Below, one piece after another: positions 11,529-22,290 of a stretch of 27,989 nucleotides of DNA. How positions within the stretch are numbered: position 1 is the stretch's first letter; the number at the start of each line of letters is the position of its first letter. Under the pieces are notes generated by a model. It saw only the letters and a program-made list of their open reading frames with translations. It was not told the origin of the DNA and ran no database searches. The translations under genes and the position numbers were made by a program. Source of the DNA: a phage; NCBI GenBank assembly GCA_025276375.1, contig GCA_025276375.1_3645.2; one strand, given 5' to 3'.

Positions 11529-13865
11529 TTACCAAAGGTCGGTAGACATGAAGTTGATATCTTTATTGTTCTCCCACTCAAGTTTTGCATCAAATATTTT
11601 GTTAAACTCACCCTCATCTATTGAAATCGTGATTTTCCCATCACTGATCTCTAAAGGTAGCATTTCCATAGTTCTTAATTGAGAAGCAAAACCGGGGCCA
11701 CCTGGCAACGGAAGAGTCCCGCCCGGTAAGGTGTCCAAAGGATTAACAAACCCGTTACCTCCTGATATGATATCTTTGCGAATCATATCGCTGATAGTGT
11801 CCAGCTGCTGATTTCTTTCACTTAGTGGGTTGTAACGGTCATTAAATAATTCCCCGGCGCTTAGTATTGTACCGATAATACCCAGCTTACCAAGCAGACC
11901 AACTTTGCCACCAGGTGTCTTGAGGCCACCTCCACCTTTTCCTGCCGGAGCTCCACCACTAGATCCTTCTGCAGTAGCGACACCAGCTGCTCCAGCTGCA
12001 CCTCTTAAAGAGTTAAGGAATTTAAAGGTTTTTACAAGCATGGATGCCATGACAAAACCTTTTGTTAGGGCGTTGACTACCAGCATGATGGCAGCAGCAA
12101 ACCCTGCCCATCTAGCATAGCTAAAGGTGTCATGAAGCTCTTCAGAATATTCCTTCGTCTTAGCTGTTATGAATCCCCATTTAATCCCCCATTCAAGGAA
12201 AAACATGCGGATCTTGACTATAGTGTTGTTTAGTTCACCAACTACCCAGTTAAGGCCTCTCACAAACCCGCTAACAAAATCACCAGAGGCATCCCACACA
12301 AATTGCAGAGTCTCACCAGTGCGGATCAGTGTATAATAGAACTCTGTCAGTTCGTCAGACCAACGGGTGAACAGTTTCTGACGAGTCAGTTCGATGAAGG
12401 TTTTCAGTCTGTTTTCTGCCAGCACGTTAGACTTCTGCATTCTTTCATAACCAGCTGCAGATGCCTCGTTCATGTACTTAGCCACATACTTCATGATCTT
12501 GGCTGTTTTAACCTCACCTTTCTTCATCATGTCCATGAACTGATCCATGGAGAGTTCAGAAAGACCAAAAGCCTCTTTGGTGGCCTTGATAAAAGGTTCG
12601 TATGCACCAGGCAATGCTTCAGCAAGCTGTTGCTTCAGTTCCTCGGACATTACTTGTCCCTTGCCAAGCATCTGCTGGATTGCCATGATACCGCGCTGAT
12701 ATTTTACCTCATCAGCACCATAAGCAGCAGCATACTGGGAGTATGCAGAAAACAGCTCATGCACTTCCTGATTTGTCATCTGGTTTTTGGCGTTTACCGA
12801 CATCTGGGCGTAACCTTGAAGACCAGATTTGAGATCAAAACCAAGACGCATAGCCTCTTGCTGGACAAACGCAACCTCACTGTTGGCTTTGTTTGGATCT
12901 CCAGTAACAGCAGTAAGAGCAGCACTTGCCCCCTCCATCATGTGACCGGATCTATTAACCGCAGCAAATCCAGAAAAAGCTGTATACGCAGCTGTTGCAT
13001 TAATAACAGATCTACGTAAGTCTCTCATGGCATCGCCTAGTGTAAGCGTTTGGCTGGTGGCGCTTTTAAATCCAGACTGCAGAGCTGACAGGTGGGCGTT
13101 AAAGGTTGACTTTTTCATCTCCCCGCGAGCAAACCTAGACTCTAACTCTGAGTATCCTGGCAAGCTTCCACGGAATCCGGCCCCATACTTGGCAGAAAGT
13201 CTTATCGCGGAGTTGTAGAGGTGGGTTCTCCTTGCCTCACGATCCGACATAAGCCTATTATCCATACCAGCTTTACTGTCTCTTCTTAGCTGTCTATGAT
13301 AACGATTCATGGCAGCGGTCTGGGCTTTCACAAGATTAGGATCTGAAGCCACCCCACCCATGTTCGGGTTGCCTGGAATATATCTGAAAGACTTGGCGTT
13401 AGCAAGAACTCTTGCCTTAGGTGCCTTATAACCCCCATAGGATACTGGTGCAGATTTGGCAGCTTTTTTAGCCTCTTTAGCTTGCTGCTGGTAGAACTTA
13501 CGCATCCTAGCCATCTCCGGGTTTTTGGCGGTAAGATTGCCTACAGCTTGCCTACGTCTTGCATTCTCCCTACGCTCTATTGCAGCCTTTACTGCAGCCT
13601 CTTTCTTGGCCTGAGCAACGCTCTCCCTGTGCAGTTTAGCATTTGCTTGAGATTGTTGTCTGGCAACACGTTGCATTGTCTGCTGAGTTTTAACCGCCAC
13701 TGCCTGCCATCTACTCATGGGGTTGGCTGAGTTAAAATCCTCGCCCAGTTTCCTGAACTCCCTCCCAATACTGCGAATTTTCTCTACAGCTTTTTTGTAG
13801 GAGGAGTTCTCTATCTCAAAGCCAATCTTGTTGACTGTTGTGGCAACTATTTTGTTTGTAGCCAT
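11529..13865 (-). CDS. tail tape measure protein (778 aa)
   Basis: Long alpha-helical-type protein directly after the chaperone pair. Gly-rich hydrophobic segment (GAAGAAGVATAEGSSGGAPAGKGGGGLKTPGGKVGLLGKLGIIG). SD GAGG before the ATG at 13865. Confidence 0.8.
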   Translation of the reverse strand: MATNKIVATTVNKIGFEIENSSYKKAVEKIRSIGREFRKLGEDFNSANPMSRWQAVAVKTQQTMQRVARQQSQANAKLHRESVAQAKKEAAVKAAIERRENARRRQAVGNLTAKNPEMARMRKFYQQQAKEAKKAAKSAPVSYGGYKAPKARVLANAKSFRYIPGNPNMGGVASDPNLVKAQTAAMNRYHRQLRRDSKAGMDNRLMSDREARRTHLYNSAIRLSAKYGAGFRGSLPGYSELESRFARGEMKKSTFNAHLSALQSGFKSATSQTLTLGDAMRDLRRSVINATAAYTAFSGFAAVNRSGHMMEGASAALTAVTGDPNKANSEVAFVQQEAMRLGFDLKSGLQGYAQMSVNAKNQMTNQEVHELFSAYSQYAAAYGADEVKYQRGIMAIQQMLGKGQVMSEELKQQLAEALPGAYEPFIKATKEAFGLSELSMDQFMDMMKKGEVKTAKIMKYVAKYMNEASAAGYERMQKSNVLAENRLKTFIELTRQKLFTRWSDELTEFYYTLIRTGETLQFVWDASGDFVSGFVRGLNWVVGELNNTIVKIRMFFLEWGIKWGFITAKTKEYSEELHDTFSYARWAGFAAAIMLVVNALTKGFVMASMLVKTFKFLNSLRGAAGAAGVATAEGSSGGAPAGKGGGGLKTPGGKVGLLGKLGIIGTILSAGELFNDRYNPLSERNQQLDTISDMIRKDIISGGNGFVNPLDTLPGGTLPLPGGPGFASQLRTMEMLPLEISDGKITISIDEGEFNKIFDAKLEWENNKDINFMSTDLW

Positions 13866-13877
13866 GGTTTCCTCATA

Positions 13878-13915
13878 ATAAAAAGGGCCAGATCCCAGAA
13901 AAGGAATCCGGCCCT
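13878..13915 (-). terminator. hairpin + U-tract between chaperone and TMP genes (terminator/attenuator)
   Basis: Minus-strand GGGCCGGAUUCC-UUUUCU-GGGAUCUGGCCC (12-bp stem with one mismatch and one G.U) followed by UUUUUAUUAU, then the SD for TMP. Confidence 0.45.
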
Positions 13916-13919
13916 TAGA

Positions 13920-14653
13920 TTATCCTCTCCTGCGCTTAGCTTTCGCAGCAGCTGCGGCAGCCTTCTGCTCCCGCTCCATTTCCCTGTTTTGGACGGTATC
14001 TAGGAATTCTTCGATATCAAGATACTCACAGAGCTTCAGGAAATACGCCATATCTGCAAGATTTAGCGATTCAAAATTTTCCCCTTTGAAATTCTTGAGC
14101 ACCCTGCACCAAAGAAAGTCGAACCAGTTAAGTGAACTGTTCTTAGCTGCCCACTCACTGGCCCTCACAACAACCTTGCTTATTCCTGCTCTTCCGGAGT
14201 CTGATCCAGATTGTTCACCTGCTGGATCATACCCATCTGCTGTAACATCTCCAGAAGGCTTCCTAAACCGTCTTGTGTGAAAAAACAGCCGTAGTTAACC
14301 TCCAGAACCTTACCTGCCAGCTTAATCATCTCCAGCAGATGCCCTGCAAACACAACATCAGGGTTAAGCTTATCCACACCATCCACGGTAATATCTTCGA
14401 ACAAGATTTTAAATAACTCTTCAATAGAGTTATCATCAAGTTCTTGGAACAGGTAAGCCAGGGCTGTAGGAAGGACCTCTGCCATATTCTGACCGCCTGA
14501 GAGAATAGATCCACCGATAGCACCTAGCGGGACAGCCACAATCTTACCGATTTTAGGCATGTTTTTCATTGCTTTCATCGGTCCCCAGTGGGTGATCACA
14601 AAGTTGTGCCCTGCTAAATCAATCTCTGTTGTAGGTCTAAAGTTTATAGCCAT
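13920..14653 (-). CDS. tail assembly chaperone frameshift fusion product (GT-like, about 244 aa) made by -1 slippage at 14285-14279
   Basis: The -1 frame is open from the slip site (FFHTRRFRKPSGDVTADGYDPAGEQ...VVVRASEWAAKNSS...) to the stop at 13920, continuous with the 82-aa track ORF (13920-14168). (14653-14168) mod 3 = 2 confirms the -1 frame. Confidence 0.55.
14180..14653 (-). CDS. tail assembly chaperone (157 aa, G-like product)
   Basis: Small acidic protein immediately upstream of TMP. Contains slippery heptamer U UUU UUC (14285-14279) in the 0 frame near its 3' end. Confidence 0.65.
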   Translation of the reverse strand: MAINFRPTTEIDLAGHNFVITHWGPMKAMKNMPKIGKIVAVPLGAIGGSILSGGQNMAEVLPTALAYLFQELDDNSIEELFKILFEDITVDGVDKLNPDVVFAGHLLEMIKLAGKVLEVNYGCFFTQDGLGSLLEMLQQMGMIQQVNNLDQTPEEQE

Positions 14654-14696
14654 TTTATAGCATCCTTATTAGTCATGTTGTGCACCATATTTGTGT

Positions 14697-14725
14697 ATTT
14701 TACCATGATTACGGTGCATTGTCAA
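14697..14725 (-). promoter_or_regulatory. near-consensus sigma70 promoter TTGACA-N17-TAAAAT upstream of the chaperone/TMP genes
   Basis: Minus-strand -35 TTGACA (14725-14720) and -10 TAAAAT (14702-14697), exact 17-nt spacer, in the 162-nt gap after the tube-gene terminator. Confidence 0.45.
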
Positions 14726-14765: not shown

Positions 14766-14800
14766 TAAAAGCAAAAAGCCCCACCCGAAGGTGAGGCCTA
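14766..14800 (-). terminator. intrinsic terminator after the tube-sized gene
   Basis: Minus-strand CCUCACC-UUCG-GGUGGGG hairpin followed by CUUUUUGCUUUUAU, just after the stop at 14816. Confidence 0.6.
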
Positions 14801-14815: not shown

Positions 14816-15289
14816 TTAGATAATACCTGCAAGACCTGCGAGGCCAGTGAGAGCACCAGTGATGTTGTCACGGTTGAGCCATGCATCCAGAATACCGATA
14901 TCCCAGTCCAGCTGACCTACTTCGGTTCCGTAAGTTAGGTCAGGCTGTTTCTGGATCCAACCGATTGTAGCAATGCCAGGGCCCTGGCTACCTTCCAGCA
15001 GAACCGGGAAGAATACCAGACCAGTAATAGATGCCTGTTTCTGCCAGTCAGAAAGGTAAGCGTTCCATACAGAAGTGTTCTGCAAGGATACAGTCATAAC
15101 ACCAGATTGGTTACGAGACAGAGCTGCAGACATTTCACCATCCACACCAACGTGAGGGTAGATGTTGTCTTCGTTTCTTGAAACAACGATCTTGGTGTCA
15201 GCAGCGAAGCCAGTGACACGCTGCTGCATCAGATACAGTTTGACCTTTTTAGGGTCATACGCATAAGGAGTTAAAATTTGAGTTTCCAT
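14816..15289 (-). CDS. putative tail tube protein (157 aa)
   Basis: Size and position between the 458-aa protein and the chaperone/TMP genes. No motif recognised. Confidence 0.4.
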   Translation of the reverse strand: METQILTPYAYDPKKVKLYLMQQRVTGFAADTKIVVSRNEDNIYPHVGVDGEMSAALSRNQSGVMTVSLQNTSVWNAYLSDWQKQASITGLVFFPVLLEGSQGPGIATIGWIQKQPDLTYGTEVGQLDWDIGILDAWLNRDNITGALTGLAGLAGII

Positions 15290-15299
15290 CTAGGCTTCC

Positions 15300-16676
15300 T
15301 TATTCAGTCATTGCAACAGCATTGGTGGATTTAGAACCAACTTTGTCCAGAAGGACGTTGATCCGGATACGAACGAAGTGCAGGGCGTTGTTATACACCA
15401 GTTCTACTTTCACACCTTCCAGAACACGAGCAGCCAACTGATTAGTTGGGATTTCTGCACGTTTAGGAACTGTAATGATCGGGTCGTAGAATACATTATT
15501 GTCTTCGTCGAAACCTGTCAGGATCGCACCATTCTTAATGCCAGTGTTGATTGGGTTGTTCATCAAGACAGACTTGATAACCGGAAGATCATCATCAGAC
15601 ATCTTCATGCTTAAACCCATGTTGGAGCGGCGATGCATGTACCCAAACATAGATTCTTCAGATCTGAACTTGATCCAGTGTGCAAAACGAATAGCGTCTG
15701 CATACTGACCTGAAGCACACTTACCTTCCCAGAAAGCACCAACACCGTTAATCATTCTATAGAAGTTAACGTGGTTTTCCCAAATCGCCATGCGCTGAGT
15801 TAAAGTCAGAGATGGTGCAATCACACCCGGCATCTGTTTTAAGTGCAAGCTGTCGCCGTAAGACGGATCGTTGGATGCCATAGCGCCTACGATACCACCC
15901 TCTGGAAAATCTTTATCCGCACGAGGATCGTACATGCCGACACTATCATATTGTGCAGCCATCAGTTTGGTGGCGATGTTATTTTCTTTGCCAGTCACAT
16001 CTTCTGCAGTAGAATAGACATGGAGCTTGTAGTTAGCCTGAGCCCACTTAGCACATGCTTCAATGTCGGTGTGGTCTTCATGGCACAGGAAGTACCAATT
16101 ATCACGCTCAGCATTGATCTTATCAACTACTGTAGAAGGTTTTTCAGAATTGGCGATATTTTTGATTGTATAGTTACCAGTATGATAACCAACAGTGCAG
16201 TCACCAGTGATGGTAATAACACCTTCAGAAGCCTCTACAGTGATATCGTTCAAGTTACCATCTGCTTCGATTTTAGTCTTCATTGATTCTGCAATCTGAG
16301 TTGCACCTGTTCCACCAGAGATAGGTACTATCAGAGAAGTATTGTAGCCACCTTTTGCAATGGTCATTACGACATCGGTATCAGCTGCGGCAGCAATACC
16401 TTTAAAATCTACAGTGGTCTTTTCTTTGGCCTGTCTGCCGATCATAACGTATTGTGGAGGGAATACACCACCAAAAGCTTTTGCTGCAAACTCATACGCT
16501 GCAGAGCCTTGTGCGAAACCATCTTCCACCATCTGATCCAGCTCCGCATATACGCGAGCTCGCTCAGTAAAGTTGTTGTGGATAGCGATGAACAGGGGAG
16601 TTTCGAAACCTACAGTGTCAATAGGCTGGGTTCCGAGGTTAACTGTAACATCTACCACCTTATCTAAATATGGCAT
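15300..16676 (-). CDS. putative tail sheath protein (458 aa); alternative: large major tail protein
   Basis: Order 458 aa -> 157 aa -> chaperone (frameshift) -> TMP fits sheath-tube-chaperone-TMP of contractile tails. SD GAGGAA before the ATG at 16676. Call is positional. Confidence 0.4.
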   Translation of the reverse strand: MPYLDKVVDVTVNLGTQPIDTVGFETPLFIAIHNNFTERARVYAELDQMVEDGFAQGSAAYEFAAKAFGGVFPPQYVMIGRQAKEKTTVDFKGIAAAADTDVVMTIAKGGYNTSLIVPISGGTGATQIAESMKTKIEADGNLNDITVEASEGVITITGDCTVGYHTGNYTIKNIANSEKPSTVVDKINAERDNWYFLCHEDHTDIEACAKWAQANYKLHVYSTAEDVTGKENNIATKLMAAQYDSVGMYDPRADKDFPEGGIVGAMASNDPSYGDSLHLKQMPGVIAPSLTLTQRMAIWENHVNFYRMINGVGAFWEGKCASGQYADAIRFAHWIKFRSEESMFGYMHRRSNMGLSMKMSDDDLPVIKSVLMNNPINTGIKNGAILTGFDEDNNVFYDPIITVPKRAEIPTNQLAARVLEGVKVELVYNNALHFVRIRINVLLDKVGSKSTNAVAMTE

Positions 16677-21309: not shown

Positions 21310-22290
21310 TTATTTATTGGATTCTTTACGTGCGCGAGCCAGAGCTTTAGCGACGTTTTCAGCAATAATGTCTTCAGCAGATTTAGCAATGTCGTCCACC
21401 ACGACATCACCATCTTTACCTTGCTCTGTGGTTGCGAACTCTTCTTTAGCTTTTTCAACTTTAGCTTCCAGTTCAGCAATACGAGCTTGAGCTTTTTCCA
21501 GCAATTCAACAACAGGGGCGTTAGCTTTATCCAGCATGAATTCGACCAGAGGTGCGTGGTCTTCTTCAGTGGTGAAGCTTAACGCCTGAGCTTTTTCCAG
21601 CATTTTAGCTTTTTCAACTTCTACCTGAGCCTTGATGATTTCTTCAGCTTTTTCATTGGTAGCTTTCAGTTCTTCGAACTGTTTCAGCAGGTCCAGGTAC
21701 TCTTGAGACTTGGTTACGTCTTCCACCGGATTCTCCTCGGTATTTGCGGATTTATCAACATTGTCCACAGCGTCTGTAACAACTTCTTCTGTGGTTTCCT
21801 GTGCCGCTTTAATAAGTTTCCCTTCTTCATCGAAGAGATCAGCGGTCATCTGCTCAAAAACTTGTTGGGTTTTCAACAGAGTGTATTGGTCAACAATACT
21901 TAAATCTTTACCTTCTTTAGCAGCTTTGTGAATGGTTACGTTATCACAACGTTCTTCTAACCACTGCACACAAGCCTCTGCATCAGCCTGTGCCCACTCC
22001 CAATCTGGGTGTTCTTTTGCCCAAGCTTCTTCCTCAATCTCGAACCCAAGCAGGTGAGCCAGTGCCTTAGCATCGTCATACCACATATCGAAAAAACGAC
22101 GCAGGTATTCTTCAAAGCTAAGTTCAACAGTAACTTGGCGAAGAGCCTTAACGATATCCTCTGTTAACTGCTCGGGCTTAAGATCGCTCTTCATTAAAAG
22201 AGATACAGGCCTATTGTTAGCGCTATAGCCTTGCGCCTTATGGCACAGGGCAATCCCCTTCTCTTTAATAGTAATCGTTTTTTCAGACAT
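21310..22290 (-). CDS. putative scaffolding protein (326 aa)
   Basis: Highly acidic, Lys/Glu-rich helical sequence (LEEKAQARIAELEAKVEKAKEE...) between the portal/protease and MCP genes. Start overlaps the upstream stop (TAATG). Confidence 0.55.
   Translation of the reverse strand: MSEKTITIKEKGIALCHKAQGYSANNRPVSLLMKSDLKPEQLTEDIVKALRQVTVELSFEEYLRRFFDMWYDDAKALAHLLGFEIEEEAWAKEHPDWEWAQADAEACVQWLEERCDNVTIHKAAKEGKDLSIVDQYTLLKTQQVFEQMTADLFDEEGKLIKAAQETTEEVVTDAVDNVDKSANTEENPVEDVTKSQEYLDLLKQFEELKATNEKAEEIIKAQVEVEKAKMLEKAQALSFTTEEDHAPLVEFMLDKANAPVVELLEKAQARIAELEAKVEKAKEEFATTEQGKDGDVVVDDIAKSAEDIIAENVAKALARARKESNK

What the first reader, a model, noticed from the sequence alone, without database searches (positions are those of the whole stretch)
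13920..14653. Programmed -1 ribosomal frameshift site in the tail assembly chaperone gene
The 157-aa chaperone ORF contains the canonical slippery heptamer U UUU UUC (14285-14279) in the correct 0-frame phase (codons UGU UUU UUC). The -1 frame from that point is open for ~119 codons to 13920 and matches the separately listed 82-aa ORF. This is the conserved G/GT-type arrangement found upstream of tape measure genes in tailed phages, and predicts a ~244-aa fusion product at low stoichiometry.
Basis: partly seen in the sequence, partly recalled or inferred. Interest (0 to 1): 0.5.

Follow-up and report, generated by a model that had tools for sequence, protein, structure and literature searches.

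The report
Tail chaperone frameshift site, rV5-like phage
This is the usual programmed -1 ribosomal frameshift that lets a tailed phage make a short and a long tail-assembly chaperone from one gene; it is real and strongly conserved, but ordinary, and matters mainly because database records of rV5-like phages do not annotate it.

Summary
The window is an rV5-like (Vequintavirus) myophage. On the minus strand the order is sheath, tube, a 157-aa tail assembly chaperone (14653-14180, Pfam PF21822), an 82-aa ORF, then the tape measure gene.

U UUU UUC (14285-14279) lies in phase (UGU UUU UUC). The -1 frame opens 9 nt upstream and runs 119 codons to the stop at 13922-13920, which predicts a 244-aa, 27-kDa fusion.

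Of 46 related loci, down to 24-28% chaperone identity, 43 carry the same in-phase heptamer. Two carry other canonical heptamers at the same place (C CCU UUU, G GGA AAG). The residue before Phe-Phe varies (Cys, Ser, Pro), but its third base is always U.

The -1 frame has no conserved start codon. In several lineages the first candidate start lies inside the conserved C-terminal domain.

Felix O1-like records already annotate the homologous pair as a joined CDS at the same heptamer. No Vequintavirus record inspected does.

There is no conserved downstream RNA structure. A GGAGG 13 nt upstream may stimulate the shift.

Verdict: a genuine G/GT-type -1 frameshift, a new (unannotated) member of a well-known kind, of low interest.

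The parts
14180..14653 (-). Tail assembly chaperone, short form (G-like, TAC-N). 157 aa, 17.3 kDa, pI 4.5. This is the product of ordinary 0-frame translation.
   Evidence: ORF. PF21822 Phage_TAC_15, E 1.1e-23, 84.5 bits against a cut-off of 22. phrog_3840 'tail assembly chaperone', E 6e-69. Mass and pI.
14663..14667 (-). Ribosome-binding site AAGGA, 9 nt before the ATG of the chaperone gene.
   Evidence: Read directly from the sequence.
14299..14303 (-). Internal Shine-Dalgarno-like GGAGG, 13 nt upstream of the heptamer. A possible 5' stimulator of the shift; this role is inferred.
   Evidence: Predicted duplex with the anti-SD is -10.0 kcal/mol. An element of -6.4 kcal/mol or stronger sits at the same place in 12 of 18 lineages and is absent in 6. 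The SD-to-site distance known to stimulate -1 shifts is 9-14 nt (PMC5009743).
14295..14297 (-). Last stop codon (TAA) of the -1 frame. The -1 frame opens at 14294, 9 nt before the heptamer.
14279..14285 (-). Slippery heptamer U UUU UUC, in phase (UGU UUU UUC). tRNA-Phe in both the P and A sites can re-pair to UUU UUU one base back.
   Evidence: It is the only in-phase XXXYYYZ in the 112-nt overlap. It is invariant in 43 of 46 related loci. U_UU.U_UU.C belongs to the efficient H_HH.U_UU.Y class in E. coli (PMC4066793).
14184..14279 (-). Part of the -1 frame that overlaps the chaperone 3' end. It encodes the conserved RFRxP motif and then a Gly/Ser/Asp/Pro-rich linker (fusion residues 126-157).
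   Evidence: The linker varies in length and sequence between lineages but is never interrupted by a stop.
13920..14279 (-). Full -1-frame extension: 119 codons plus the TAA stop. Joined to 14653-14279 it gives the 244-aa long form (GT-like, TAC-NC).
   Evidence: The exact fusion sequence is absent from a 15-billion-protein collection, whereas the 157-aa and 82-aa ORFs are present and named 'hypothetical protein' or 'tail assembly chaperone'.
13923..14183 (-). Conserved C-terminal 'T' domain (ISKVV..A..YA.KNSSL.WFDYL.CR....F.GE...SLE..DM.YLLKLNEYLDIE.). By analogy with lambda it is presumed to bind the tail tube protein.
   Evidence: Alignment A3. phrog_10409, E 8.5e-51, function unknown. No Pfam, NCBIfam or PDB sequence match.
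13920..14168 (-). The 82-aa ORF as gene callers list it (GTG start, weak AAGG 5 nt upstream). It is a fragment of the extension, not a conserved independent gene.
   Evidence: The annotated starts of its counterparts differ from record to record, giving 43-122 aa.
14697..14725 (-). Sigma-70-type promoter (TTGACA, 17 nt, TG-TAAAAT) that drives the chaperone mini-operon.
   Evidence: Matches 11 of 12 positions. Annotated as P51 in the rV5 record.
13883..13916 (-). Intrinsic terminator directly after the -1 ORF stop and before the tape measure gene. A second terminator at 14776-14799 follows the tube gene.
   Evidence: Annotated in the rV5 and Gotham records.
11529..13865 (-). Tape measure protein gene (778 aa). 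Downstream context that defines the locus.
   Evidence: PF20155 TMP_3, E 2.6e-18; phrog_5255.
14816..16676 (-). Tail tube gene (15289-14816) and tail sheath gene (16676-15300). Upstream context.
   Evidence: PF11681, phrog_280 and phrog_205. rV5 gp52 and gp53 were identified in virions by mass spectrometry (PMC3606486).

Best explanation
The chaperone gene of this rV5-like myophage is decoded in two ways.

Most ribosomes read the 0 frame to the stop at 14182-14180 and make the 157-aa short chaperone.

A minority slip back one base. This happens when UUU sits in the P site and UUC in the A site (14284-14279), and both tRNA-Phe re-pair to U-UU and U-UU. These ribosomes then read HTRRFRKPSGD..., a flexible linker and a conserved domain of about 87 aa, and stop at 13922-13920. 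The result is a 244-aa fusion that shares its first 125 residues with the short form.

The shift seems to depend on the heptamer itself, since no downstream RNA structure is present. In this lineage it is perhaps helped by a GGAGG 13 nt upstream pairing with 16S rRNA.

By analogy with lambda gpG/gpGT, the shared N-terminal part coats the tape measure protein and the extension recruits the tail tube protein. Neither form ends up in the virion.

Shown here: the site, its phase, the open frame, its conservation, and the lack of an independent start codon.
Inferred: that slippage occurs, its efficiency, and the binding partners.
For: 1. Anatomy: in-phase U UUU UUC; the -1 frame opens 9 nt upstream and runs 119 codons.

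2. Uniqueness: none of the other 27 in-phase heptamers in the window is followed by more than 21 open -1 codons.

3. Family and position: PF21822 and phrog_3840, located between the tube and tape measure genes.

4. Conservation of nucleotides rather than amino acids:
- 43 of 46 related loci carry T TTT TTC in phase.
- The codon before it is TGT (Cys), TCT or AGT (Ser), or CCT (Pro), so its third base is always T.
- Neighbouring synonymous sites do vary.
- From the window's codon usage, the expected frequency of TGT TTT TTC given Cys-Phe-Phe is about 0.11 per lineage.

5. Replacement by other canonical heptamers at the same place: C CCU UUU in KLEP7 and G GGA AAG in Barba16S. All three heptamers fall in the efficient E. 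coli classes (PMC4066793).

6. No conserved start codon. The first ATG, GTG or TTG in the -1 frame is at extension codon 83 in a Klebsiella phage, 63 in CB7 and PBES02, 62 in KLEP7 and 40 in Barba. All of these lie inside the conserved domain.

7. The -1 frame stays open through the dual-coded overlap in every lineage: 0.8-41% expected per lineage, about 1e-18.5 jointly.

8. The frame split is universal. In the spread sample of 60 rows, all 44 that cover 88% or more of the fusion need two tblastn pieces. All 73 protein hits are 149-159-aa short forms. T-domain hits are 43-102-aa fragments whose N-termini do not agree.

9. Homologous Felix O1-like pairs (LEANFGSFF|RSKHFQKP, same heptamer) are deposited as joined CDS. 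A conserved -1 frameshift has been proposed for the related Vandenendeviridae and Andersonviridae (PMC12846349).

10. rV5 genes 50 and 51 carry no 'MS evidence' tag, and none of the six gp50/gp51 peptide strings searched occurs in the virion MS table. The tube and sheath proteins are there.
Against: - There is no direct evidence that the 244-aa protein exists.
- No downstream stimulatory structure is present. The 60-nt fold scores z +0.76 and the 100-nt fold z -1.71. The alignment fold finds 0 pairs. Across 18 lineages z ranges from -1.45 to +1.37. Efficiency may therefore be low: in reporters U_UU.U_UU.C gave more than 0.1% without a stimulator.
- In the rV5 lineage a GTG with a weak AAGG lies 11 nt after the 0-frame stop, so some independent or re-initiated 82-aa product cannot be excluded.
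- A run of six T could in principle also support polymerase slippage.
- The related loci are not phylogenetically independent, and several IMG/VR loci duplicate GenBank phages, so the joint probabilities are upper bounds on significance.
Confidence: 0.88

Rival explanations
1. The downstream ORF is a separate small gene. It would be translated from its own start (GTG 14168 in this lineage), possibly by termination-reinitiation after the chaperone stop 11 nt upstream. No frameshift would be needed and the heptamer would be incidental.
For: A GTG at 14168 is preceded by AAGG at a 5-nt spacing and lies 11 nt after the TAA of the chaperone. Gene callers and most GenBank records list it as an independent 82-aa CDS.
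Against: - The start is not conserved. A Klebsiella phage, CB7/PBES02, KLEP7 and Barba have no ATG, GTG or TTG before the conserved KNSSL.WFDYL segment.
- Annotated counterparts range from 43 to 122 aa.
- The 32-46 codons between the heptamer and the domain stay open in all lineages, although random synonymous codon choice would usually close them.
- The RFRxP motif right after the heptamer is conserved in the -1 frame.
- The heptamer is conserved at synonymous positions.
Confidence: 0.05
2. The long form arises by transcriptional slippage. RNA polymerase would add one U on the T6 run, and ordinary translation of the edited mRNA would give a 245-aa fusion (...GCFFFHTRR...).
For: The site is a homopolymer of six T. 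[quoted passage not shown] One Felix O1-like record (CL1) has T7 and therefore an in-frame fusion, which shows that the run length can change.
Against: - Bacterial transcriptional slippage is documented on runs of about 9 A or T (PMC5009743). Six is short.
- Two lineages have replaced the run by G GGA AAG and C CCU UUU. These are canonical tandem-slippage heptamers but poor slippage templates for a polymerase.
- The Z base is always C. The run is never lengthened to T7, although UUU would be synonymous in the 0 frame.
- The base that is conserved across amino-acid changes is exactly the X position needed for P-site re-pairing.
Confidence: 0.05
3. Coincidence: a chance in-phase heptamer and a chance open frame with no biological role.
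For: In-phase XXXYYYZ heptamers occur about once per 300 codons in this window. One falling inside a 37-codon overlap has roughly a 12% chance.
Against: An open -1 run of 119 codons against a maximum of 21 elsewhere. Conservation of the heptamer, the frame and the encoded domain down to 24-28% chaperone identity. The recoding test.
Confidence: 0.02

Closest known systems
Phage lambda gpG/gpGT programmed -1 frameshift (Levin et al. 1993; Xu, Hendrix and Duda 2004, 2013, 2014, as summarised in PMC5009743)
   Same: Two overlapping ORFs lie just upstream of the tape measure gene. [quoted passage not shown] The long form shares the N-terminal domain and adds a -1-encoded C-terminal domain. Neither product is expected in virions.
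   Different: - The heptamer is U UUU UUC here, not G GGA AAG, although the Rheinheimera relatives do use G GGA AAG.
- The host phage has a contractile tail.
- No detectable sequence similarity to gpG or gpT was found or tested for here.
- The shift site lies 32 codons before the 0-frame stop, so the short form has its own 32-residue acidic tail.
- The gene pair has its own promoter and is flanked by terminators.
Felix O1-like (Ounavirinae: Felixounavirus, Mooglevirus) 'tape measure chaperone' pair, deposited as a joined CDS
   Same: It is homologous: the tblastn search with the Felixounavirus CL1 chaperone reaches Vequintavirinae phages (CR8, Av-05) at E about 3e-4, and alignment A2 gives 24-28% identity. 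It has the same heptamer T TTT TTC in the same motif (LE[AV]N[FY]G.FF), the same GGAGG upstream, and the same -1 motif (R..HFQKP against HTRRFRKP).
   Different: The overlap is shorter (11 codons) and so is the T part (92-93 aa). There the frameshift is annotated in GenBank and RefSeq. In the Vequintavirus records inspected it is not.
Predicted -1 frameshift in the chaperone genes of Vandenendeviridae (Pakpunavirus) and Andersonviridae, with a conserved GTTTTT motif (PMC12846349, 2025)
   Same: The argument is the same (uninterrupted -1 frame plus an invariant poly-T motif near the 3' end of TAC-N). That paper states these clades are related to Vequintavirinae.
   Different: That paper does not treat Vequintavirinae chaperone genes. 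The Vandenendeviridae sequences were not examined here.
Phage P2 E/E+E' tail chaperone frameshift (cited in PMC5009743; the details are from my own memory)
   Same: A contractile-tailed phage with a poly-T slippery run and a -1 shift upstream of the tape measure gene.
   Different: No homology was tested. The review reports P2-type efficiency as 2-3 times that of lambda. Efficiency here is unknown.
E. coli dnaX and IS-element -1 frameshifting stimulated by an internal Shine-Dalgarno sequence
   Same: A GGAGG lies 13 nt 5' of the heptamer, within the 9-14 nt range known to stimulate -1 shifts.
   Different: There is no 3' stem-loop here. The SD-like element is missing in 6 of 18 lineages and coincides with conserved Leu-Glu-Val codons, so it may be incidental.

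Membership tests
G/GT-type tail assembly chaperone with programmed -1 frameshift (Xu et al. 2004 class) | The gene pair lies between the major tail (tube) gene and the tape measure gene. | tested here: met
   Order on the minus strand: sheath, tube, chaperone, -1 ORF, tape measure. Related records show the same order.
G/GT-type tail assembly chaperone with programmed -1 frameshift (Xu et al. 2004 class) | The second ORF overlaps the 3' end of the first in the -1 frame and extends well past its stop. | tested here: met
   112-nt overlap. The -1 frame is open for 124 codons, 86 of them beyond the 0-frame stop.
G/GT-type tail assembly chaperone with programmed -1 frameshift (Xu et al. 2004 class) | A canonical slippery heptamer X XXY YYZ lies in phase within the overlap. 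| tested here: met
   U UUU UUC at 14285-14279. It is the only one in the overlap.
G/GT-type tail assembly chaperone with programmed -1 frameshift (Xu et al. 2004 class) | The downstream ORF lacks a conserved translation start of its own. | tested here: met
   In several lineages the first candidate start lies inside the conserved domain. Called N-termini vary.
G/GT-type tail assembly chaperone with programmed -1 frameshift (Xu et al. 2004 class) | The arrangement is conserved among divergent relatives. | tested here: met
   46 loci from at least 10 genera, plus uncultured contigs. Recoding test.
G/GT-type tail assembly chaperone with programmed -1 frameshift (Xu et al. 2004 class) | The fusion protein is actually produced, at a low fixed ratio to the short form, and both are needed for tail assembly. 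| not testable with these tools
   Needs proteomics of infected cells, a reporter assay and phage genetics.
G/GT-type tail assembly chaperone with programmed -1 frameshift (Xu et al. 2004 class) | Both products are absent from mature virions. | tested here: inconclusive
   The rV5 gene table gives no MS evidence for genes 50 and 51. None of the six gp50/gp51 peptide strings searched occurs in the virion MS file, whereas gp49, gp52 and gp53 were detected. This is negative evidence from one published data set on a 97%-identical phage.
Pfam PF21822 Phage_TAC_15 | Whole-protein score above the curated gathering threshold. | tested here: met
   84.5 bits against a cut-off of 22; residues 15-129 match profile positions 2-125 of 127. 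All 73 homologues also carry PF21822.
-1 frameshift stimulated by a 3' RNA structure (IS911, IS3 or coronavirus type) | A stable stem-loop or pseudoknot 5-9 nt downstream of the heptamer, conserved or covarying. | tested here: not met
   No consensus pairs. Downstream z-scores range from -1.45 to +1.37 in 18 lineages. No Rfam family reaches threshold.
dnaX-like -1 frameshift stimulated by an internal SD | An SD-like sequence 9-14 nt 5' of the shift site. | tested here: inconclusive
   GGAGG lies 13 nt upstream in the window. It is present in 12 of 18 lineages and absent in 6, and it is confounded with conserved codons. Its function was not tested.
Transcriptional slippage site | A long homopolymer (about 9 A or T in bacteria), with no dependence on codon phase. 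| tested here: not met
   The run is 6 T. It is replaced by GGGAAAG and CCCTTTT in two lineages. The length requirement is from PMC5009743.

The most novel reading that the evidence does not exclude
The most novel reading not excluded is this. In this family the chaperone ratio is set without any RNA structure. It would be set by the bare heptamer plus a lineage-variable internal Shine-Dalgarno element at a fixed 11-13 nt distance: strong GGAGG in rV5-, phAPEC8- and Felix O1-like phages, weaker or absent elsewhere. Different lineages would then tune the short-to-long ratio through rRNA pairing. A subsidiary possibility is that polymerase slippage on the T6 run contributes to the long form alongside ribosomal slippage.
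Probability: 0.25. Interest if true: 0.3.

Novelty: new member of a known kind. Interest (0 to 1): 0.2.

Why it matters
The practical value is better annotation.
- More than a hundred Vequintavirus genomes, and the related Seunavirus, Certrevirus, Phapecoctavirus and Justusliebigvirus genomes, list a 'hypothetical protein' of arbitrary length after the chaperone gene. The correct feature would be a joined CDS.
- rV5-like phages are used in therapy and biocontrol cocktails, so a correct gene model for tail assembly is useful.

Scientifically the case is a clean illustration of selection acting on a slippery heptamer as such. The X base is kept across Cys, Ser and Pro codons, and the site was replaced twice by other canonical heptamers. 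It adds no new principle.

Tried and rejected
- **Downstream stimulatory structure.** Folds of 60 and 100 nt, an alignment fold of 10 lineages (0 pairs) and per-lineage folds with shuffles found nothing significant or conserved. The long-range stem in the 100-nt fold starts about 20 nt after the site and scores only z -1.71.
- **Rfam.** Only a sub-threshold GcvB match (18.6 bits against 42, E 0.16), taken as chance.
- **PDB sequence search with the fusion.** No hit at E up to 1.
- **NCBIfam.** No hit for either part. Pfam has no hit for the extension.
- **Natural in-frame fusions ('Rosetta stone').** None appeared in the spread phage tblastn sample, among 73 homologues from 5.8 billion proteins, or in a full HMMER scan of 1.84 billion representatives with the extension. 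The only exception is Felixounavirus CL1, which has T7. It is the only single-piece full-length match in the 60-row sample drawn from 295 records with at least 80% coverage, so it is probably a homopolymer error.
- **Long proteins hit by the extension.** The 737-1311-aa hits are DUF285/LRR repeat proteins. These are weak periodic-leucine matches and not relevant.
- **The search for related loci with the 14-sequence alignment.** It failed for lack of a conserved stretch. A 6-sequence alignment worked. One of its two search patterns contained NYGCFF, so that sample can test codon choice but cannot find lineages with other motifs.
- **Literature.** No held paper links rV5-like or Vequintavirus phages with a chaperone frameshift. 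The rV5 genome paper mentions neither a frameshift nor a chaperone. The 2022 paper on T4-like chaperones is not held.
- **Structure prediction.** Not attempted. The fusion is not a contiguous window translation, T-domain homologues could not be supplied as an alignment, and the result would not bear on the frameshift question.
Full report
**What the window is**

The 5.2-kb stretch around the finding is 97-98% identical to rV5-like Escherichia myophages (BP9, APECc02, Gotham, rV5; genus Vequintavirus). All the genes concerned are on the minus strand:
- tail sheath, 16676-15300 (phrog_205, PF11863)
- tail tube, 15289-14816 (PF11681, phrog_280)
- a 157-aa ORF, 14653-14180
- an 82-aa ORF, 14168-13920
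- the tape measure gene, 13865-11529 (PF20155, phrog_5255)

The 157-aa protein matches Pfam PF21822 (Phage_TAC_15) at E 1.1e-23, 84.5 bits against a cut-off of 22. It also matches phrog_3840 'tail assembly chaperone' at E 6e-69.

**Checking the observation**

- Six T followed by C occupy 14285-14279.
- With the ATG at 14653, the 0-frame codons are TGT (14287-14285), TTT and TTC. The heptamer is therefore X XXY YYZ in the required phase.
- The -1 frame carries 15 stops upstream of the heptamer within the gene. The last is TAA at 14297-14295.
- The -1 frame then stays open for 124 codons, to TAA at 13922-13920.
- From the Z base it encodes HTRRFRKPSGD... (119 residues). This frame includes the 82-aa ORF.
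- The fusion is 244 aa and 27.1 kDa. The short form is 17.3 kDa.

**Is it more than chance?**

The 26 long ORFs of the window (8321 codons) hold 28 in-phase XXXYYYZ heptamers. After the other 27, the -1 frame closes within 0-21 codons. Only this one is followed by 119 open codons and passes the 0-frame stop.

I also held the 0-frame protein fixed and redrew synonymous codons from the window's own usage. The -1 frame then stays open across the 32-codon overlap in 8.4% of trials. A heptamer in the overlap is not very improbable on its own, at about 12%. The combination with the open frame is.

**Comparative evidence**

I fetched the locus from 22 GenBank phages and 24 IMG/VR contigs. Some of the contigs duplicate GenBank phages. 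The set covers:
- Vequintavirus, Seunavirus, Avunavirus, Henunavirus, Certrevirus and a Klebsiella group
- Phapecoctavirus and Justusliebigvirus
- Aeromonas, Pseudaeromonas and Rheinheimera phages
- Felixounavirus and Mooglevirus

Chaperone identity to the window falls to 24-28%. Every locus has a -1 frame that opens shortly before an in-phase slippery heptamer. It runs 92-128 codons beyond the heptamer, except where a contig end cuts it short.

T TTT TTC is present in 43 of the 46 loci. The exceptions are informative:
- KLEP7 has C CCT TTT at the homologous place.
- Rheinheimera phage Barba16S has G GGA AAG, the lambda heptamer, two to three codons nearer the conserved -1 motif FRxPSG.
- Felixounavirus CL1 has seven T, so its record shows one in-frame 213-aa ORF. 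It was the only single-piece full-length match in the sampled rows from 295 records, and is probably a homopolymer error.

The amino acid before Phe-Phe differs between lineages: Cys TGT, Ser TCT or AGT, Pro CCT. Its third base is always T, which is exactly the X position needed for P-site re-pairing. Meanwhile the synonymous positions of the neighbouring Asn, Tyr and Gly codons vary. In this genome Phe is TTT 51% of the time and Cys is TGT 43% of the time. TGT TTT TTC is therefore expected in about 11% of Cys-Phe-Phe occurrences.

All three heptamers seen in the family belong to the classes measured as most efficient in E. coli, H_HH.U_UU.Y and V_VV.A_AA.R. U_UU.U_UU.C gave more than 0.1% frameshifting without any stimulator (PMC4066793).

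**The downstream ORF is not an independent gene**

The -1-frame peptides align throughout:
- a conserved RFRxP motif directly after the shift site
- a Gly/Ser/Thr/Pro/Asp-rich linker of variable length
- a well conserved C-terminal domain (KNSSL.WFDYL.CR...F.GE...SLE..DM.YLLKLNEYLDIE)

No start codon is conserved. The GTG used in rV5-type records has no counterpart elsewhere. In a Klebsiella phage the first ATG, GTG or TTG is at extension codon 83. In CB7 and PBES02 it is at 63, in KLEP7 at 62 and in Barba at 40. All of these lie inside the conserved domain.

Database gene calls reflect this. Annotated counterparts are 43, 51, 60, 71, 82, 88 or 122 aa. Hits to the extension among 1.84 billion representative proteins are 43-102-aa fragments beginning anywhere between query residues 23 and 79.

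The -1 frame through the dual-coded overlap is open in all 16 lineages tested. The expectation from synonymous recoding is 0.8-41% each, or about 1e-18.5 jointly if independent. Shared ancestry makes that an overestimate of significance, but most of these lineages are saturated at synonymous sites.

No in-frame natural fusion was found:
- all 44 sampled phage records covering 88% or more of the fusion need two tblastn pieces
- all 73 homologues found with the fusion are 149-159-aa short forms
- the exact 244-aa sequence is absent from a 15-billion-protein collection, while both separate ORFs are present as 'hypothetical protein' or 'tail assembly chaperone'

**Stimulators**

Nothing supports a 3' structure.
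- The 60 nt after the site fold no better than shuffles (z +0.76). The 100-nt fold gives z -1.71, with a stem that starts about 20 nt downstream.
- The alignment fold over ten lineages predicts no pair.
- Eighteen lineages folded one by one give z from -1.45 to +1.37.
- No Rfam family reaches threshold.

Upstream, GGAGG (14303-14299) lies 13 nt before the heptamer, with a predicted anti-SD duplex of -10 kcal/mol. An SD-like element of -6.4 kcal/mol or stronger sits at the same distance in 12 of 18 lineages, including phAPEC8 and the Felix O1-like phages. It is absent in six. The distance fits the 9-14 nt known to stimulate -1 shifts (PMC5009743). However, the element coincides with the conserved Leu-Glu-Val codons, so its role is only a possibility.

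**Mechanism**

The best-supported reading is tandem -1 slippage of two tRNA-Phe on U UUU UUC. This gives a minor 244-aa product next to the major 157-aa one.

Function is inferred from lambda. There gpG and the G part of gpGT bind the tape measure protein, the T part binds the major tail protein, the ratio is about 30:1, and neither is in virions (PMC5009743). Consistent with this, the published rV5 gene table marks genes 52 and 53 as 'MS evidence' but not genes 50 and 51. None of the six gp50/gp51 peptide strings I searched for occurs in the virion MS file.

Two rivals remain at low probability:
- Independent initiation or re-initiation at GTG 14168 could add some T-only protein in this lineage. 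It cannot explain the conserved, start-less architecture elsewhere.
- Transcriptional slippage would need a longer run, about 9 in bacteria. It is also hard to reconcile with the GGGAAAG and CCCTTTT replacements and with a run that is never lengthened.

**Comparison with what is known**

This is the conserved G/GT frameshift of long-tailed phages (Xu et al. 2004, cited). The closest case is the homologous gene pair of Felix O1-like phages. Salmonella phage Mushroom (NC_041923) and Citrobacter phage Mordin (KT363872) carry the same heptamer in the same motif (LEANFGSFF|R.KHFQKP), and their records give a joined CDS. Many other Felixounavirus records list two chaperone features.

A 2025 paper proposes a conserved -1 frameshift with a GTTTTT motif in Vandenendeviridae and Andersonviridae, and notes their relatedness to Vequintavirinae (PMC12846349).

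For Vequintavirus itself I found no joined CDS in any record inspected. No held paper mentions it. The original rV5 record lists an overlapping 122-aa 'ORF 50' without comment.

**Verdict**

It is a new, unannotated member of a very well known kind. Interest is low, about 0.2. The value lies in correcting annotation and in a tidy example of selection on the slippery heptamer itself.

Noticed in passing
window 13883-13916, 14697-14725 and 14776-14799 (minus strand): The chaperone pair forms its own small transcription unit. A strong intrinsic terminator follows the tube gene, then comes a near-consensus extended -10 promoter (TTGACA, 17 nt, TG-TAAAAT; P51 in the rV5 record). A 14-bp-stem terminator lies directly after the -1 ORF and only 17 nt before the tape measure start. 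This suggests chaperone and tape measure levels are uncoupled from the abundant sheath and tube transcripts.
   Followed up: partly
L020 (Escherichia phage CL1, OK040806) 1530-1536: This Felixounavirus record has seven T where its relatives have six. The chaperone therefore appears as a single in-frame 213-aa 'tape measure chaperone'. It was the only single-piece full-length match among the sampled rows from 295 records with at least 80% coverage. It is either a homopolymer sequencing error or a natural 'long form only' mutant.
   Followed up: partly
GenBank records MG0656xx ('Campylobacter phage' C15, A13b, A112b, A12a, A141, A150, A110a): About 23 records labelled Campylobacter phage are 97-99% identical to E. 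coli rV5-like or phi92-like phages at this locus, and they carry no annotation. The host label looks doubtful.
   Followed up: no
window 22090-22096 (minus strand), in ORF 22290-21310: A second in-phase T TTT TTC. Here the -1 frame closes after 4 codons, so any slippage would only truncate that protein.
   Followed up: no
window 14262-14267 and the homologous positions in L005-L017: A conserved GGTTTC, which is an in-phase U_UUC tetramer (the second most shift-prone tetramer in E. coli when a stimulator is present), lies 6-12 nt after the heptamer in most lineages. The window and rV5 have GGTTTA. It encodes Gly-Phe in the 0 frame and the conserved RFR in the -1 frame, so dual-coding constraint is the likelier reason for its conservation.
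   Followed up: partly
window 14215-14228 compared with L004 (rV5): The two differences from rV5 in the overlap (ATC/ATT and AAT/AAC) are synonymous in the 0 frame but change linker residues in the -1 frame (Pro/Ser swaps). This fits a tolerant linker and a constrained short-form C-terminus.
   Followed up: no
L015 (Rheinheimera phage Barba16S) 1820-2458: An opposite-strand gene for a putative DNA-binding protein is inserted between the -1 ORF and the tape measure gene, interrupting the otherwise universal adjacency.
   Followed up: no
L012 (Pseudaeromonas phage KLEP7) 1033-1653: The chaperone is annotated as 206 aa with an N-terminal extension of about 50 residues that has no counterpart in relatives. 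The start codon is probably called too early. No downstream ORF is annotated, although the -1 frame is open for 112 codons.
   Followed up: no
proteins P0109, P0111, P0115: The T-domain query gives weak repeated matches (E 1e-5 to 1e-3) to long DUF285/LRR repeat proteins. This is probably only a shared periodic-leucine pattern.
   Followed up: partly
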